From NCBI GenBank assembly GCA_965140705.1, contig OZ223300.1, forward strand, positions 128,001 to 192,000: a DNA stretch of 64,000 nucleotides, read 5' to 3'. Positions 27,001 to 33,000 of this stretch are shown here, one piece after another; the first letter of the stretch is position 1, and every line of letters starts with the position of its first letter. This DNA is from an uncultured Arcobacter sp. (GTDB lineage Bacteria; Campylobacterota; Campylobacteria; Campylobacterales; Arcobacteraceae). Position numbers: made by a program.

Positions 27001-30000
27001 TTGAGTAAATTATGTAATTAAATGGTTACTGAAATTTAGATATAATTAAGGTAATACATAAAAAAGAGATCAAATGAAGATAGTTATAATAGGTGGAGGA
27101 ATTGCCGCAGTTTACTTAGCAAATAATATTTTAAATATAGATTCATCATGTAATATTACTATGCTTAGTGATGAAAAATATATCCCTTATGATAGGATAC
27201 ATCTTTGTAGACTAATTGGAACTAAAAATGATGTAGAAGATATAAAACTAGAACTAAATAGTGCTGTAACCTTACAACTTAATCAAAGGGTTTCAAATAT
27301 CAATAAAGAGGAAAAAATAGTCTTCTCAAATGATAAAACTTATACCTATGATAAACTTATTATTGCCACAGGTTCAACTCCCCTAACTCTTTTAGATACA
27401 AATATAGATAATGTAGCTGTTTTTCGAAATGTAAATGATTGTAAAAAGATAGAGAAATACTCTAAAACCCATGAAGTAGTACTTGTAGGAAGTGGCCCTA
27501 TTGCCTTAGAACTCCTTGATACTTTAAATAATATAAGTGATGTGAAAAGCATAACTTTACTTTTAAGAAGTAGACATTTATATGATAAATATATATCAAA
27601 TGAAGCTATGCAAATCATGGAAAAAAGCTTTTTAAAAAATGAAAAAGTAAAAATCTCCTATGAAGATGAGATAGTTGATACAGTAATCAGAAATAATAAA
27701 ATTGAACTTCTTAAAACAAAAAAGTTAGAGATAAAAAATCCTTTTATTGTTTTTGGAGTGGGTATAAAAGCAAATGCAAGTTCTTTTGAAAATATTGTAG
27801 ATGTAAATAAAGGAATTCTAGTAAATGAATTCATGCAAACTAGTGATGAAAATATCTATGCAGTTGGTGAATGTGCAGAAGTTATAAAAGATAAATTCTT
27901 AGCAGGTCATGTAAAAGAGTGTACAATCCAAGCAAATGTTGCTATCTCTCATATCTTTCAAAAAGATGTTATGAGTTTTGAGTTAGATGTGGCAGTTGAT
28001 ATGCTTAAGATTGGTGATTTTACTTTGGTTGAAATTTGCTCTTCAGATTTTAATAAAGATTTTGAAAAAGTTGCCATTGAATCAATAGATAAAAAAAGAG
28101 TTGATGAATACTTCTTAAAAGATAATAAACTTATTAGATTTATTGGAATTAATTCAAATATTGATACAGCGTATTTAGAAAAAGTGATAAAACAAAAAGA
28201 AGAGATAGATTTAAACTATTTGTATGAAAATAGAGAATTAAGCCCAAGAGGTAAGTTAGTTTGTGCTTGTAAACATATCTATTATGATGATTTAGTAGAA
28301 CTTGTAACTTCTTGTAAAATAGACTCTTTTGCTACTTTAAAGGAGTTTAGTGAGGCAGGAAGAGTTTGTGGGAGATGTAAAAAAGAGATAGATGATATTA
28401 TTTTGGATACCCAACATTTAATAGATTATGATACTCCTAAAAAAACTCCTGAAGAGATAAGATTAGAAGAAGAGTTAAAAAGAAGTAAAAAAAGAGTAGA
28501 GAAGTTTAAAAAACTACATCCAAAAAATAATATGGATGAAAATAATTTAGAATCGGCACTAAAAATGCTTGATATGGGCAAAAGTGAAATTAATAGTTGG
28601 ATCTCTATGGTAACAGCTAATATGAAATTAAACCCAGCCTTTGAAGATGTTGTAAGTGAGGGAATTAAAAACTTAAATAAGATTCCAATAATTTGGTTGG
28701 AGTTAAGTGATTGTAGCGGGAATAGTGAAGCTTTTATTAAATCTTCTAATCCTGTTTTAGAGGATTTGATTTTTGATTATATCTCTTTGGATTATCATGA
28801 GTTACTTATGAGTGCAAGTGGTGATGAGAGTGAGACTATTTTAGAAGATATTATAAAAAATGACAAAGGTAAATATGTCTTAATAGTCGAAGGCGCTGTT
28901 CCTTTAGGGCTTGATGGAAAATATTTACGAATAGGCAAAAAAGGTGAAACAGGAATTGAACTTTTAGAAAAATGTGCTAAAGATGCAGCCCTTGTATTAG
29001 CTGTTGGTTCATGTGCTTTTGATGGAGGAGTAGTATCTGCATATCCAAATCCTACAGGTGCAGTTGGAGTCGCGGAGGCTTTAAAAAGAGATGATGTGAT
29101 AAATATTACAGGATGTCCAACAAATCCTATAAATATAGTAGGAACATTGCTCTCATATATGATGTTTGAAGAGTTGCCAGCTTTAGATAAATTTAACCGC
29201 CCTTTATGGGCTTATGAACAAAGGGTTCATGATAATTGTGAAAGAAGAGGTCACTATGAACTTGGCGAATTTGTAAAAGAGTGGGGAGATGATGGTGCAA
29301 AAAATGGTTGGTGTCTTTTTGAGATGGGCTGTAAAGGTCCATATGCCAATGTAAATTGCCCCTCTATGAAATTTAACCAAGGAACAAGTTGGCCTGTACA
29401 AGTTGGGCATGGTTGTATGGGTTGTACTGAACTTGGATTTTTTGATAAGTTTGCAAATGAGAGAGTCTATAAAGAAAAAGAGACAGAAAAATGATGAAAA
29501 AAATTGTTATTGATCCCATTACTAGAATTGAAGGACACTTAAGAGCTGAAGTAGAAGTTGATGAAAATGGAGTCGTAAAAGAGGCTTATGTTAGTGGGCA
29601 ACTTTTTCGAGGCATAGAGATAATTTTACAAGATAGAGACCCCAGAGATGCAGGATTATTAGCTGGAAGAGTTTGTGGAGTTTGTACAAATTCACACTTT
29701 AGAGGTGCTATTGGGGCTGTTGAAAATGCATATTCTTTAAGTGTTCCTCAAAATGCTAGAATAATAAGAGACTTGATGTCTATGGCTTTGTTTATTCAAG
29801 ACCATGTGGTACATTTTTATCAGTTACATCTGCTTGATTTTGTGGATGTATTAAGTGCCTTAAAGGCAAATCCTAAAGAGAGTACAAAAGAGGCTCATAA
29901 GTATTGTAAAAAACCATTTAGAAACTCTAATACACATTATGAGACAGTTTTAGAAAAGCTTCAAAATTTTATAGATGCAGGAAGATTAGGACCTTTTAAT

Positions 30001-33000
30001 AGTGGATATTGGGGACATAGTGATTATAAGTTAAGTAGTGAACAAAATTTAATTTTATTATCCCACTATTTTGAAGCCTTACAATTTCAAACAAAAATCT
30101 CAAAAGCCATAGCTATCTTTGGAGGGAAAACACCCCATCCTCAATCTTTGGTTGTAGGTGGTATTACAAGTGTTGCAGATATGCTAAACCCCCAAAGATT
30201 AAATGACTTTATTTTTGTAATAAAAGAGGCAAGTGATTTTATAAATAGGGCTTATTTACCTGATATGAAATTATTAGCGATTGCATATAAAGAAGAGATA
30301 AAATCAAAAAGTGGAAAAACAGCTGCTAATTATTTAAGTGTAGGTGTATATCCTATAAACAAAGAGAAAAAACTTTTTTCTAGTGGAGTTATATTTGATG
30401 GAGATTTTTCAAATATACAAGAGTTCGATGCCAATAAAATAAAAGAAGAAGTTCAAAGGGCTTGGTATAGTGATGATGAAAAACAAGAACCTTTTTATAC
30501 TGATTTAAATGAAGATGGAACTTTAAAAACTAAAAATAGTGATGATAAATACTCTTGGATAAAAGCTCCACGATATGATGGTAAGACTATGGAAACTGGT
30601 CCCATTGCAAGATTGTTTATTAGTTATTTAAATAATAACACTGCCATAAACTCTTTTGTTGATGAATTTTTAAAAGATACCTCTTTAAACTTTGAAGATT
30701 TAAACTCAAGCATTGGAAGAAATTGTGCAAGGGCAATTGAGAGTCAATATATTTGTGAATATATTTTTAAACTTGTTTCAAATTTGATTCAAAATATTAA
30801 ATACTATGATACAAATACTTGGGATAAATACAATTTTGAAGAACTAGAAAAAGATGCAAGTGGCTACGTTTTCTTAGAAGTGCCAAGGGGAGTTTTACTT
30901 CATAGTATAAACATAGAAAACTCCAAAATAAAAAATTATCAAATCATTGCCCCAACAACTTGGAATGCAACTCCCAAAAATAGTGATGGAATTAGAGGTG
31001 CATATGAAGAGGCTTTAGTTGGGGTAAAAATAGCTGATCTATCTAAACCCCTCGAAGTTCTAAAGGTATTACACTCTTTTGACCCATGTTTAGCCTGTGC
31101 AGTTCATATTATAGATACAAAAGGGAAAGTTTTGGGAGAGTATAAAATTAGAACTTAACTTCTTTAATGATTTATTATACTCATTTTACTTCCTAGATTT
31201 GCCATACCACTTGTGTACATTGCACTAGATACTATTCCATCTATTTGTAAACTTGCATACTCTTGTACATTATTTATATTTACTCCACCCGCAACTAAAA
31301 TAGTTATGTGGGGGAAATTTTCATTTTTATATTTTATTATCTCTTTTAAAACATCTATTTTTATTTTATCTACTTGAAGAACATCTGCTCCATATTTCAT
31401 TAATTGTTTTGCATCATCAAGAGTTTCAGTCTCTATTACAATCTTCTTTTCACAAGCTTTTTGTTTGAAGTTTTTAATATCATTAAAAAACTCATTTTCA
31501 TTTTTGTAAGCTATTCGATGTTGTGGAAAAATAAGAATACTCTCACTTAGTCCCAAACGGTGTGGCATAGCACCACCTATCATTATAGATTTAATACATA
31601 ACCTTTTTGCAAAAGGGAAACTCTTTCTAGTGGATAATAGTTCACAGTTTTTATTTACACTATTGATTTTTTCTTTCATTTTAAAAGTGTAAGTAGACAT
31701 TTTACAGCTATACTCTAAGAGCATTTGACACGCTCTCCAAGCTTTGTGTACATCTTCGTAGTCTCCACTAAACTCCATAATTGTATCATTCTCTTTTATC
31801 AAAGTTTTTGATGGTATATAATTTTCAACTTTACAATTTAATAGTTGGGCAATTCTTTTAGCCTCTTCACTACAAGAGACAATAATCTCTTCTCTAGTAA
31901 AGATACTTAATTTTACTTTTTTATTAGATTGTTCTTGAAGATATGTGGTTAAATCAAGGTAAGGGATATCATCATTTATATATTGTTGTAATTCATAATC
32001 TGTTAAGTTATACATATGTCTGTCCTAAGTTAGTTTGTTTCAAATAGTTTTTGAAACAAACTATTTATTTTTTAAGCTACTAAGATAACACTTGATGCTT
32101 TAAAAATAGCATAAACGGTATCATCTTTTCTAATTGATAAATCTTCTACTGCTTCATTTGTAATTACAGCACAAAGTTGGTTCTCTCCAATAGATACTTT
32201 AATTTCACTATTAACTGCACCTTTAATTACTTCTTTTACCACACCCTTAATATTATTTCTAGCTGTTGTTTTAATAACTTCTTTACTTAAAATAATTGTT
32301 GAAGCTTTAATTAGCGTACCAACTTTACTATCAACATCAATTTTAAGTGATTCTTTCCCATCATTTGTAACTGTTGCACAAATATGAATAGAAGGTGAAA
32401 CTTCTATCTTAATTTCACTCATTACTGTACCTGTAGTTATTTCTACGACTTTACCATTTAACTGGTTTCTTGCACTTGTTTTCATATCAAACTCCTTATA
32501 ATAAAATTAAATCTTCTACAAAATAAAAGACTTAAATTTAATATATTTTTTCTTTTTTCTGAAGTATATTTAGACAAATAAAAAAGACAATAGATATAAC
32601 TACTAAAATACCACTAAGTGCCATTGCCAAATCATATTCTCCATCAAATACAGCATTATAAATTGCAAGGGATACCGTATCTGTTTTCCCAATAATATTC
32701 CCACCTAACATCAAAGTAATTCCCACTTCGCCCAATGCCCTAGCAGTAGCTATCAATAAGGAGATATATAGTGAGTTTTTAATATTTGGTAGTACAATAA
32801 ACAAAAAAGTATTTATCTCACTTTTCCCACTAATGTATGCAGCTTCTTTGATGTTTTTAGGAAACTGTTCTATAGTAGCTTGAAGTGGTTTTACCATCAA
32901 GGGAAGTCCTGCTATAAAAGTTGCTATTACAATTCCTGAAAAACTAAAGATTAGTGTGATATTAAAATGACTAAGTAATGCCCCTAATACACCATCTCTT

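What a model noticed while it worked through the whole genome (the two positions that open the first line are those of the whole stretch)
27074..31158. Two-gene cytosolic [NiFe] hydrogenase whose small subunit is fused to a NirB-like FAD/NAD(P)H + [2Fe-2S] reductase modul [...]
g00124 (806 aa) joins an N-terminal NAD(P)H flavoreductase (two GxGxxA folds, residues 1-300) and a BFD-type [2Fe-2S] domain (395-443) through a ~50-residue charged helix to a Tat-less, anchor-less group-1-like [NiFe] hydrogenase small subunit (500-806); the large subunit g00125 overlaps it by 4 nt. I propose a self-contained soluble H2:NAD(P)+ oxidoreductase built on an uptake-type core, here placed to recycle nitrogenase H2 into pyridine nucleotide; it differs from NAD-reducing group 3d (Hox) enzymes, which use a NuoEF-type diaphorase.
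Evidence so far: Pfam: Pyr_redox_2 1-271 (6e-43), Fer2_BFD 395-443, Oxidored_q6 547-694, NiFe_hyd_SSU_C 714-794; SSU part 46% identical to Wolinella HydA but no TAT_signal row and no C-terminal helix, unlike paralogues g01303/g01298; large subunit 45.7% to Wolinella HydB. N-module: best solved relatives are NAD(P)H flavoreductases incl. 'NirB-family N-terminal domain' 3klj; AF2 residues 1-380 pLDDT about 85. Full-length fusion (64-88% id, about 805 aa) in all 119 other clusters listed, mostly Sulfurimonas, named only 'hydrogenase small subunit'. In 24 of 183 other Arcobacteraceae genomes the N-module matches at E<1e-50, in 18 inside one open frame of 701-846 aa; 17 of the 24 have nifD vs 67 of 183 overall; i [...]
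(Added by a program. Inside this text positions count along the whole contig: contig position 128,001 is position 1 of the stretch shown here. "Call 12" and the like, gene names such as g00115 and contig names such as C1 are that model's own, and its searches are not shown. The text may have been shortened before it was handed on; [...] marks where a part breaks off. The agent that wrote the report below was given it as the finding of a first reader that could run no searches.)

Follow-up and report, generated by a model that had tools for sequence, protein, structure and literature searches.

The report
Flavoprotein-fused cytoplasmic nickel-iron hydrogenase
This nitrogen-fixing Arcobacter-type bacterium carries a two-gene hydrogenase whose small subunit is fused to an NAD(P)H-binding flavoprotein, a design that genome papers have described since 2006 but that nobody has yet shown to work.

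Summary
Window 27074-29494 (+) encodes an 806-aa protein: a NirB-type FAD/NAD(P)H reductase, a BFD [2Fe-2S] domain, a linker, and a group-1-type [NiFe] small subunit with no Tat signal and no membrane anchor. The large subunit (29491-31158) overlaps it by 4 nt.

All cofactor ligands are invariant in 28 fusions of 51-100 % identity, except one proximal-cluster Cys that is always Asn. Every domain is under purifying selection.

New here:
- The linker is a decayed Tat presequence.
- The fusion clade arose inside Campylobacterota-type periplasmic small subunits.
- In Arcobacteraceae the pair sits in or near nif/mod regions, in at least two arrangements.
- In six other genomes it adjoins an Ech-type hydrogenase.

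The design and the H2/NAD(H) reading are not new. Scott et al. 2006 described them for Thiomicrospira crunogena XCL-2. Hansen & Perner 2016 reported the same subunit in Arcobacter nitrofigilis, Sulfurimonas, Sulfurovum and Sulfuricurvum. Earlier notes of this scan gave me that lead.

No activity has ever been shown, and XCL-2 extracts were inactive. The nif link holds for Arcobacteraceae only, and no sigma-54 promoter precedes the gene.

Verdict: a new member of a known, uncharacterised enzyme type.

The parts
26883..27073 (+). Upstream intergenic region of the fusion gene. TATAAT lies at 27041-27046. There is no sigma-54 (TGG-N8-TTGC) site. From 27003 onward the region belongs to the block that is missing in G274.
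   Evidence: Sequence read; pattern scan; conservation in the genus; comparison with G274.
27074..28243 (+). Residues 1-390: FAD/NAD(P)H flavoreductase of the NirB / ferredoxin-reductase subtype. It has the GGGIAA FAD fold and the GSGPIxLE NAD(P) fold. Arg165 is invariant and no acidic residue occurs at position 164.
   Evidence: Pfam; NCBIfam nirB N-terminal half (profile positions 1-466 of 794); PDB alignments; invariant columns.
28256..28402 (+). Residues 395-443: BFD-type [2Fe-2S] domain. Cys397, Cys399, Cys432 and Cys435 are invariant.
   Evidence: Pfam; alignment A2.
28409..28678 (+). Residues 446-535: linker, a decayed Tat presequence. The twin arginines are replaced by (K/R)-x-E.
   Evidence: Alignment A1. 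Unfused small subunits match the query from about residue 468. BLASTP E 2e-5. hhalign probability 95.6 %, E 1.1e-8 over 67 columns, reversed control E 0.27. Column counts.
28679..29494 (+). Residues 536-806: group-1-type [NiFe] small-subunit domain. Proximal-cluster positions: C547, N550, C647, C681. Distal: H719, C722, C747, C753. Medial: C762, C781, C784. It ends 22 residues after the last Cys with no anchor helix.
29491..31158 (+). [NiFe] large subunit. L1 motif RVCGVCTNSH, L2 motif DPCLACAVH, followed by a 16-residue C-terminal tail that implies endopeptidase processing.
   Evidence: An orthologue lies directly downstream of the fusion in 22 of 24 other loci.
27003..33965 (.). A 7-kb block holding the fusion, the large subunit, modD, a TOBE gene, modB and modA. 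It is present here but absent from the otherwise collinear nif region of G274 (same genus).
   Evidence: blastn of window 20000-41000 against L070; gene families.

Best explanation
The two genes encode a cytoplasmic, two-subunit [NiFe]-hydrogenase built on a formerly periplasmic group-1 core.

Proposed path (inferred): H2 is split at the Ni-Fe site of the large subunit. Electrons pass along the three Fe-S clusters of the small-subunit domain. They then go to the BFD [2Fe-2S] cluster and the FAD of the N-terminal module of the same polypeptide, and leave as NAD(P)H. The reaction should be reversible, and I take H2 oxidation as the physiological direction.

The 90-residue linker is what remains of the Tat signal peptide. 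With the twin arginines gone and no C-terminal anchor, the enzyme stays in the cytoplasm.

The missing acidic residue and the invariant Arg after the second Rossmann strand suggest that NADPH is accepted.

In this genome and in other Arcobacteraceae the operon has been placed in or next to the nif/mod region. There it could return nitrogenase-derived H2 to the pyridine-nucleotide pool. In Sulfurimonadaceae it more likely supplies NAD(P)H from H2 for autotrophy, in some genomes beside an Ech-type hydrogenase.

Shown: domain order, ligand conservation, loss of export signals, constraint, distribution and gene contexts. Inferred: cofactor content, electron path, direction, nucleotide preference and physiological role.
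For: - Domain architecture and best relatives.
- All FAD, NAD(P), [2Fe-2S] and Fe-S ligand positions are invariant in 28 fusions of 51-100 % identity. Position 164 is never D/E and Arg165 is present in 28 of 28.
- The catalytic Cys of CoADR/Nox aligns with Ile42. The module is therefore of the ferredoxin-reductase/NirB kind, which exchanges electrons with Fe-S centres.
- No RR motif and no anchor in 28 of 28. The linker is homologous to a Tat presequence.
- Purifying selection, dN/dS window against L009: N-module 0.14, BFD 0.12, linker 0.18, SSU 0.037, large subunit 0.081.
- A dedicated large-subunit orthologue is adjacent in 22 of 24 other loci and present elsewhere in the remaining 2 genomes.
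- Maturation genes lie close by: a HycI-type protease in 8 of the 24 loci and HypF in 9.
- nif context: own genus syntenic; L011 has nifB-nifV-nifQ followed by the fusion; nifD in 17 of 24 carriers against 50 of 159 non-carriers in Arcobacteraceae; within family f7, 12 of 15 nifD+ genomes carry it against 6 of 19 nifD-.
- Ech-type genes are adjacent in 6 of 24 loci.
- The same reading was published for the XCL-2 enzyme (PMC1635747, passage read).
- The homologous cluster is transcribed in strain SP-41 (PMC6501319, passages).
Against: - There is no biochemistry for any member.
- XCL-2, which has only this hydrogenase, consumed no H2 and showed no activity in soluble or membrane fractions (PMC4744846, passages; PMC6501319).
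- No RNA evidence for this locus.
- No sigma-54/NifA-type promoter lies upstream, although such sites stand before other nif genes in the window.
- The fusion is not needed for diazotrophy in the genus: 4 of 7 genomes have nifD without it.
- 10 of 25 carrier genomes have no nifD match.
- The genome has no protease gene next to the operon, only two inside the membrane-bound hydrogenase clusters.
- One proximal-cluster Cys is Asn, with unknown effect.
- The geometry between the BFD cluster and the distal cluster could not be modelled.
Confidence: 0.55

Rival explanations
1. Reductant valve. The same enzyme runs mainly from NAD(P)H to H2 and disposes of excess reducing power when electron acceptors are scarce.
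For: - Proposed as an alternative for XCL-2 (PMC1635747, passages).
- The NirB-type module normally carries electrons from NAD(P)H to Fe-S centres (family assignment).
- XCL-2 does not consume H2.
Against: - The core is closest to uptake-type group-1 enzymes.
- By established thermodynamics, not computed here, NAD(P)H-driven H2 formation is favourable only at very low H2.
- A position inside a nif island, where H2 is produced, fits uptake better.
Confidence: 0.15
2. H2-driven reduction of another acceptor. The flavin module passes H2-derived electrons to O2/H2O2, a quinone, a disulfide or persulfide, or a ferredoxin/flavodoxin, for example to keep the cytoplasm anoxic for nitrogenase. The NAD(P) site would be secondary.
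For: - The nearest solved relatives by score include NADH oxidases and CoA-disulfide reductases.
- Cys45 next to the flavin-binding PYDR motif is invariant.
- The nif island also holds a flavodiiron protein, flavodoxin and ferredoxin genes.
Against: - The catalytic Cys of Nox/CoADR aligns with Ile42, not with Cys45.
- Cys45 takes the place of the Ser of the PPLSK motif of ferredoxin reductases.
- The complete second dinucleotide fold, with invariant G139, G141, E146 and R165, argues for real NAD(P) binding.
Confidence: 0.12
3. Not an autonomous enzyme. It is inactive on its own, or needs parts of other hydrogenase clusters (protease, chaperones, anchor), or is a decaying relic of a periplasmic enzyme.
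For: - XCL-2 extracts were inactive. The authors suggested missing Tat signal, missing cytochrome b and non-canonical Fe-S motifs as reasons, and dependence on a second cluster in SP-41.
- No protease gene lies beside the operon in this genome.
- Broken copies exist: G534 is split, and many shorter frames occur.
Against: - dN/dS is 0.04-0.18 in every domain.
- 11 of 12 canonical cluster ligands and all four BFD cysteines are invariant over 28 sequences down to 51 % identity.
- Asn at the twelfth position is known from other hydrogenase groups (PMC5364354, passage).
- The gene is intact and full length in 24 of 400 other Campylobacterota genomes.
Confidence: 0.1

Closest known systems
'Hydrogenase gene cluster I' of Hydrogenovibrio (Thiomicrospira) crunogenus XCL-2 and SP-41 (Tcr2037/Tcr2038), with its relatives named in Arcobacter nitrofigilis, Sulfurimonas autotrophica, Sulfurovum sp. 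AR and Sulfuricurvum kujiense
   Same: As described in the papers (passages read):
- a small subunit of about 813 aa with a pyridine nucleotide-disulfide oxidoreductase (FAD + NADH site) domain plus a hydrogenase small-subunit domain;
- no Tat signal and no cytochrome b;
- a large subunit with group 1b motifs that forms a clade with Epsilonproteobacteria;
- a proposed cytoplasmic H2/NAD(H) enzyme.
The window protein has all these features.
   Different: I did not hold the XCL-2 sequence, so sameness rests on the published description and on notes e1-5290429 and e1-5275673, not on an alignment made here. There the operon sits with hyp genes; here it sits in a nif island. The papers do not mention the BFD domain, the relic Tat linker, or the nif and Ech contexts in the passages I read.
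Group 1 (1b-type) membrane-bound HydABC uptake hydrogenases of Campylobacterota (Wolinella/Helicobacter type)
   Same: - Small-subunit domain 45-47 % identical to the genome's own Tat-type small subunits.
- Nested in the same strongly supported clade (SH-aLRT 100).
- Same distal and medial ligands.
- Large-subunit L1/L2 motifs and a C-terminal tail.
   Different: - No twin-arginine signal.
- No C-terminal anchor.
- No cytochrome b gene.
- An N-terminal flavoprotein and a [2Fe-2S] domain are added.
- Cytoplasmic rather than periplasmic.
Group 3d NAD-reducing soluble hydrogenases (HoxFUYH)
   Same: Proposed net reaction H2 + NAD(P)+; cytoplasmic.
   Different: - No NuoE/F/G-type FMN diaphorase.
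- A full three-cluster group-1 small subunit instead of the short HoxY.
- The large subunit matches 5xf9_D at only 78.9 bits, against 463 bits for group 1.
N-terminal half of NirB-type NAD(P)H nitrite reductases and related ferredoxin/rubredoxin reductases
   Same: FAD fold, NAD(P) fold and BFD [2Fe-2S] in the same order. TIGR02374 matches residues 3-444 to profile positions 1-466 of 794.
   Different: - Score 147 bits against a cut-off of 578.
- No NIR_SIR siroheme domains.
- The nearest non-fusion relatives are only 25-33 % identical.
Group 2 cytosolic [NiFe] hydrogenases (2a Huc; the 2d-like enzyme also present in this genome)
   Same: Tat-less and cytosolic; Asn in place of the second proximal-cluster Cys.
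   Different: Sequence similarity is far lower: Huc small subunit 83 bits and large subunit 161 bits. The genome's own group-2-like small subunit is 31 % identical. No flavoprotein fusion.

Membership tests
Flavoprotein-fused 'cluster I' hydrogenase (XCL-2 type, described 2006/2016) | Small subunit of about 800 aa joining a pyridine-nucleotide-disulfide-oxidoreductase domain (FAD + NAD(H) sites) to a hydrogenase small-subunit domain | tested here: met
   806 aa; Pyr_redox_2 at 1-271, then Oxidored_q6 and NiFe_hyd_SSU_C. Definition taken from PMC1635747 and PMC4744846.
Flavoprotein-fused 'cluster I' hydrogenase (XCL-2 type) | No Tat signal and no cytochrome b partner | tested here: met
   No RR motif. 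No Ni_hydr_CYTB among the neighbours in the window.
Flavoprotein-fused 'cluster I' hydrogenase (XCL-2 type) | Direct sequence homology to Tcr2038/Tcr2037 | not tested
The link rests on the papers' list of relatives (Arcobacter nitrofigilis, Sulfurimonas, Sulfuricurvum) and on earlier notes.
Group 1 [NiFe] uptake hydrogenase | Large subunit with N- and C-terminal CxxC nickel-binding motifs and best similarity to group 1 | tested here: met
   RVCGVCTNSH and DPCLACAVH. Best solved match 1h2a_L at 463 bits; groups 2 and 3 at 161 bits or less.
Group 1 [NiFe] uptake hydrogenase | Small subunit with ligands for proximal, medial and distal clusters | tested here: inconclusive
   11 of 12 positions are kept. 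The second proximal Cys is Asn550 in 28 of 28 sequences. This variant is known in other groups.
Group 1 [NiFe] uptake hydrogenase | Twin-arginine signal peptide on the small subunit (periplasmic location) | tested here: not met
   Only a relic presequence remains; RR is replaced by (K/R)-x-E.
Group 1 [NiFe] uptake hydrogenase | C-terminal membrane anchor and/or cytochrome b subunit | tested here: not met
   No hydrophobic C-terminus in 28 of 28 sequences. No cytochrome b gene lies adjacent.
Group 3d NAD-reducing hydrogenase (Hox) | HoxFU diaphorase of NuoEFG type with FMN | tested here: not met
   No such Pfam family in either protein or in the neighbours.
Group 3b NADP-coupled sulfhydrogenase | Large subunit of the ShyA/HydA type | tested here: not met
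   NF040828 scores 109 bits against a cut-off of 700; NF040832 scores 73 bits against a cut-off of 880.
NirB nitrite reductase | Siroheme/[4Fe-4S] NIR_SIR domains behind the flavin-BFD module | tested here: not met
   Only the N-terminal half matches, at 147 bits against a cut-off of 578. No NIR_SIR in Pfam.
CoA-disulfide reductase / NADH oxidase (single-Cys flavoproteins) | Redox-active Cys at the conserved position near the flavin | tested here: not met
   That Cys aligns with Ile42 in alignments to 3cgb and 6pfz.

The most novel reading that the evidence does not exclude
The enzyme is an active, minimal two-subunit H2:NADP+ oxidoreductase that different lineages have recruited to two jobs.

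In Arcobacteraceae it has been inserted, in at least two independent arrangements, into nif/mod regions. There it acts as a cytoplasmic recycler that returns nitrogenase H2 directly as NAD(P)H.

In Sulfurimonadaceae it is paired with an adjacent Ech-type hydrogenase. The two together would then act as a hydrogen-mediated, proton-motive ferredoxin:NAD(P)+ oxidoreductase, feeding the reverse TCA cycle and nitrogenase.

Neither context is mentioned in the papers I could search.
Probability: 0.25. Interest if true: 0.6.

Novelty: new member of a known kind. Interest (0 to 1): 0.38.

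Why it matters
If active, this would be the simplest known NAD(P)-linked [NiFe]-hydrogenase: two genes and no separate diaphorase.

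It would give sulfur-oxidising Campylobacterota and Hydrogenovibrio a direct route from H2 to NAD(P)H without reverse electron flow. That route has been assumed in growth models but assigned to other enzymes.

Surveys that classify by the large subunit file it as an ordinary periplasmic group 1b uptake enzyme. It may therefore be miscounted in environmental H2 budgets.

The type has stood untested for twenty years. The nif and Ech contexts found here suggest growth conditions (diazotrophy, H2 plus autotrophy) under which activity could finally be looked for.

Tried and rejected
- **Expression.** The only RNA run offered held a small share of words, and no contig of it could be laid. The other runs are not RNA.
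- **nif-type regulation.** No TGG-N8-TTGC site lies in 26883-27073. TGT-N10-ACA sites are no more frequent than in shuffles, and none lies upstream. L011 also shows only -10-like boxes.
- **Mobile-element signs around the 7-kb block.** No flanking repeats of note and no composition shift.
- **Distant fusions outside the clade.**
  - The exhaustive representative search gave one full-length cluster plus fragments.
  - It also gave a 600-aa divergent form, P0122/P0272, that lacks the first 185 residues or so and the first medial-cluster Cys.
  - Shorter hits to the N-module are mostly fragments.
- **Paralogue of the N-module in this genome.** None at E<=1e-5.
- **Literature searches that missed the prior description.**, with passage look-ups. 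The lead came from earlier notes.
- **A paper tying this enzyme to nif.** One search gave three papers. I checked one of them; it does not mention the link.
- **The search for related loci.** It returned only 8 loci because of its pattern step, so the genome search was used instead.
- **Dropped idea.** I considered that recurrent neighbour c3 (213 aa) is a third subunit. It is a His-rich membrane protein that looks like a nickel transporter.

Full report
**Observation**

27074-29494 (+) gives 806 aa and 29491-31158 (+) gives 555 aa. They overlap by the 4 nt ATGA.

Pfam places these families on the first protein: Pyr_redox_2 (1-271, 2.9e-42), Fer2_BFD (395-443), Oxidored_q6 (547-694) and NiFe_hyd_SSU_C (714-794). 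The second protein matches NiFeSe_Hases at 9e-193.

NCBIfam agrees. Its 'hydA hydrogenase small subunit' model matches residues 488-794. The N-terminal half of NirB (profile positions 1-466 of 794) matches residues 3-444.

Among solved structures:
- The small-subunit part scores about 250 bits with group-1 enzymes and 83 bits with Huc.
- The large subunit scores 463 bits with 1h2a_L, 161 bits with Huc and 79 bits with an NAD-reducing hydrogenase.

The genome holds three further [NiFe] hydrogenases at 1.316-1.330 Mb on contig C1. Two are Tat/cytochrome-b operons, each with its own HycI-type protease. The third is a group-2-like pair.

**Anatomy**

I aligned 28 fusions of 51-100 % identity (A2). 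The following are invariant:
- the FAD fold (G7, G8, G9);
- the PYDR-x2-LC motif;
- T99-G-S;
- the second dinucleotide fold (G139, G141, P142, E146);
- Arg165;
- G265-E266;
- the four BFD cysteines (397, 399, 432, 435);
- the cluster positions C547, N550, C647, C681, H719, C722, C747, C753, C762, C781 and C784.

Against R. eutropha MBH and E. coli Hyd-1, the motif C-T-G-C reads C-S-G-N. So the second proximal-cluster Cys is Asn. A passage in PMC5364354 says this change also occurs in some group 1, group 1f and group 2a enzymes. It is also present in one Tat-type paralogue and in the group-2-like small subunit of this genome.

The position that carries Glu in NADH-specific relatives is L/I/V/S/A in 28 of 28 sequences, and it is followed by the invariant Arg. 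I read this as a hint of NADPH or dual specificity. That is an inference.

The catalytic Cys of CoA-disulfide reductase and NADH oxidase aligns with Ile42. Cys45 takes the place of the Ser of the PPLSK motif of ferredoxin reductases. The module is therefore of the kind that trades electrons with Fe-S partners.

All 28 proteins end within about 20-35 residues of the last Cys, and none has a hydrophobic stretch there.

The large subunit keeps a 16-residue tail after DPCLACAVH, so it needs an endopeptidase.

**The linker is a dead Tat signal**

Unfused small subunits from other genomes of the phylum match the query from about residue 468, roughly 65 residues before the mature domain.

The linker aligns collinearly with the long presequence of the paralogue's small subunit:
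- BLASTP gives E 2e-5.
- Profile against profile gives probability 95.6 %, E 1.1e-8 over 67 columns. The reversed control gives E 0.27.

Where the paralogues read G-V-N-R-R-D-F-M-K-W, the fusions read (K/R)-x-E-x-N-x-W. None of the 28 keeps two arginines.

In a tree of 71 small subunits (quick method, SH-aLRT only):
- The fusions form one clade (support 100) on a long stem.
- That clade is weakly sister (support 80) to the Tat-type clade that shares the Asn.
- Both sit inside a well-supported clade (support 100) that holds the Campylobacterota-type group-1 small subunits I included, along with unnamed and some non-Campylobacterota representatives.
- The Arcobacteraceae sequences nest within Sulfurimonas-type ones, which suggests a transfer into Arcobacteraceae. 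This is an inference from one rooted tree.

**Distribution and constraint**

A full-length fusion occurs in 24 of 400 other Campylobacterota genomes, plus one copy cut by a contig end. Identities are 51-89 %, and the carriers fall in four family codes.

In Arcobacteraceae the N-module matches in 24 of 183 other genomes. In 18 of these it lies in open frames of 701-846 aa.

The exhaustive search of cluster representatives found one full-length cluster at 50 % identity and no distant fused form. The ESM Atlas has two such clusters, with 322 and 69 members. The nearest non-fused relatives of the N-module are only 25-33 % identical.

The orthologous large subunit (56-94 % identical, against 44-48 % for paralogues) lies directly downstream in 22 of 24 other loci. 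In G074 it lies 8.9 kb away behind inserted genes. In G232 it is on another contig.

dN/dS between the window and L009 is 0.14 for the N-module, 0.12 for BFD, 0.18 for the linker, 0.037 for the SSU domain and 0.081 for the large subunit.

**Context**

The window is a nif island. It holds nifA, nifHDK, two mod sets, nifEN, nifX/Z/W-type genes, flavodoxin, rpoN and a flavodiiron protein.

- G159, L008 (Arcobacter sp. Pygsuia-1) and L009 (A. iocasae) are syntenic with it.
- G274, of the same genus, has the same flanks but lacks window 27003-33965. That 7-kb block holds the hydrogenase pair, modD, a TOBE gene, modB and modA.
- In Arcobacter sp. s6 (L011) the pair follows nifB, nifV, two further genes (one without a family match, one LRR) and nifQ on one strand.
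- In L012 and L013, mod genes lie 4-9 kb upstream.
- Of the 24 Campylobacterota loci fetched, only G159 is nif-adjacent. G364 has nifD about 10 kb away.

Co-occurrence with nifD:
- 15 of 25 carriers against 35 of 375 non-carriers in the phylum sample.
- Within family f7, 12 of 15 nifD+ genomes carry the fusion against 6 of 19 nifD-.
- In Arcobacteraceae, 17 of 24 carriers against 50 of 159 non-carriers.
- Kin are not independent, so these are tendencies, not tests.
- Four of the seven other genomes of the window's genus have nifD but no fusion.

Other recurrent neighbours are maturation genes: a HycI-type protease in 8 loci, HypF in 9, and HypA-E. In 6 loci there is also a complete six-gene Ech-type group-4 hydrogenase. 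In family f7, all 6 genomes with that Ech carry the fusion. The window's genome has no Ech match.

Upstream of the gene there is a TATAAT box but no sigma-54 site. Two identical sigma-54-like sites stand before other nif-region genes in the window.

**Mechanism**

I take this path as most likely: H2, Ni-Fe site, three clusters, BFD [2Fe-2S], FAD, NAD(P)+. This is the NirB electron path run backwards.

It fits the domain order, the intact ligands, the ferredoxin-reductase character of the module, the cytoplasmic location and the constraint on every part.

Direction, nucleotide preference and cofactor content are inferred. The rivals are a reductant valve, another acceptor such as O2, and an enzyme that is not autonomous. 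They are weighed in their own sections.

**What is known**

My first seven searches found only reviews that count this enzyme among 'Group I' hydrogenases of Sulfurimonas.

Earlier notes of this scan on other genomes (e1-5290429, e1-5275673) named the prior description. I checked it in the papers' passages.

- Scott et al. 2006 (PMC1635747) wrote that the T. crunogena XCL-2 small subunit has a second domain like pyridine nucleotide-disulfide oxidoreductases, with FAD and NADH sites. [quoted passage not shown] - They found group 1b motifs in the large subunit.
  - They placed the clade with Epsilonproteobacteria.
  - They found no activity in any fraction of XCL-2.
  - They suspected that the Fe-S motifs are not conserved.
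- Gonnella et al. 2019 (PMC6501319) called it cluster I, group 1b. It is transcribed in SP-41 but on its own is not sufficient for H2 use.

I did not see supplements, and I held no XCL-2 sequence. Family identity therefore rests on these descriptions.

Against the 2016 suspicion, my alignment shows the ligand positions themselves to be invariant.

I found no paper that ties the enzyme to nif or Ech. Subscription literature was not searchable.

**Verdict**

New here:
- the relic Tat linker;
- the origin within Campylobacterota-type periplasmic enzymes;
- the evidence of constraint;
- the lineage-specific nif and Ech contexts.

This is a new member of a known, uncharacterised type, of moderate interest.

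Noticed in passing
window 12622-12636 (-) and 51935-51949 (-): Two identical sigma-54-type sites (TGGAACACTATTTGC) lie about 35 nt upstream of a ferredoxin gene (12203-12586) and of a nifX-like gene (51505-51900). The pattern as a whole occurs 14 times, against 4.85 expected.
   Followed up: partly
window 26915-26945 (-): A terminator-like hairpin with a T tail on the minus strand, conserved in the genus with pair-keeping changes. It sits just left of the border of the 7-kb block and probably once ended the minus-strand mod/nif transcript.
   Followed up: partly
window 24122-26882 (-): A conserved pair next to nifA: an SdhA/NadB-like flavoprotein (549 aa, below both curated cut-offs) and a 369-aa aldo/keto-reductase-like protein. 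The pair is also present in G159, G274, L008 and L009. Its role in the nif island is unexplained.
   Followed up: no
G000:C1:1318957-1320204 (L001) and protein P0126: The genome's second Tat-type small subunit has a presequence of about 100 residues and the same Cys-to-Asn change at the proximal cluster. P0126 (369 aa, another genome) is an unfused relative of that type with no RR motif and no anchor, a separate case of a possibly cytoplasmic group-1-like enzyme.
   Followed up: partly
L062 (G074) 701-9582; G534:C1:28841-32935: In G074 the fusion and its large subunit are separated by 8.9 kb that holds nucleotidyltransferase, Fic and AbiEii-type genes and an Amt-MCP fusion. In G534 the fusion gene is in two pieces about 2.9 kb apart, with one TGA.
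   Followed up: no
proteins P0122 / P0272 (other genomes): A 600-604-aa divergent form (50 % identical) starts at the equivalent of residue 185 and lacks the first medial-cluster Cys. It may be a split or decaying copy.
   Followed up: no
L060 6558-7199 (-), and seven other loci: A 213-aa membrane protein with a His-rich loop and no Pfam match at 1e-5 recurs beside the fusion and hyp genes in 8 of 24 loci. It looks like a nickel transporter.
   Followed up: partly
window 52256-53939 (-) and 62000-63238 (+): The nif island also encodes an ankyrin-repeat protein, a 415-aa protein with a nitroreductase domain, and a flavodiiron protein (ODP + flavodoxin domains).
   Followed up: no
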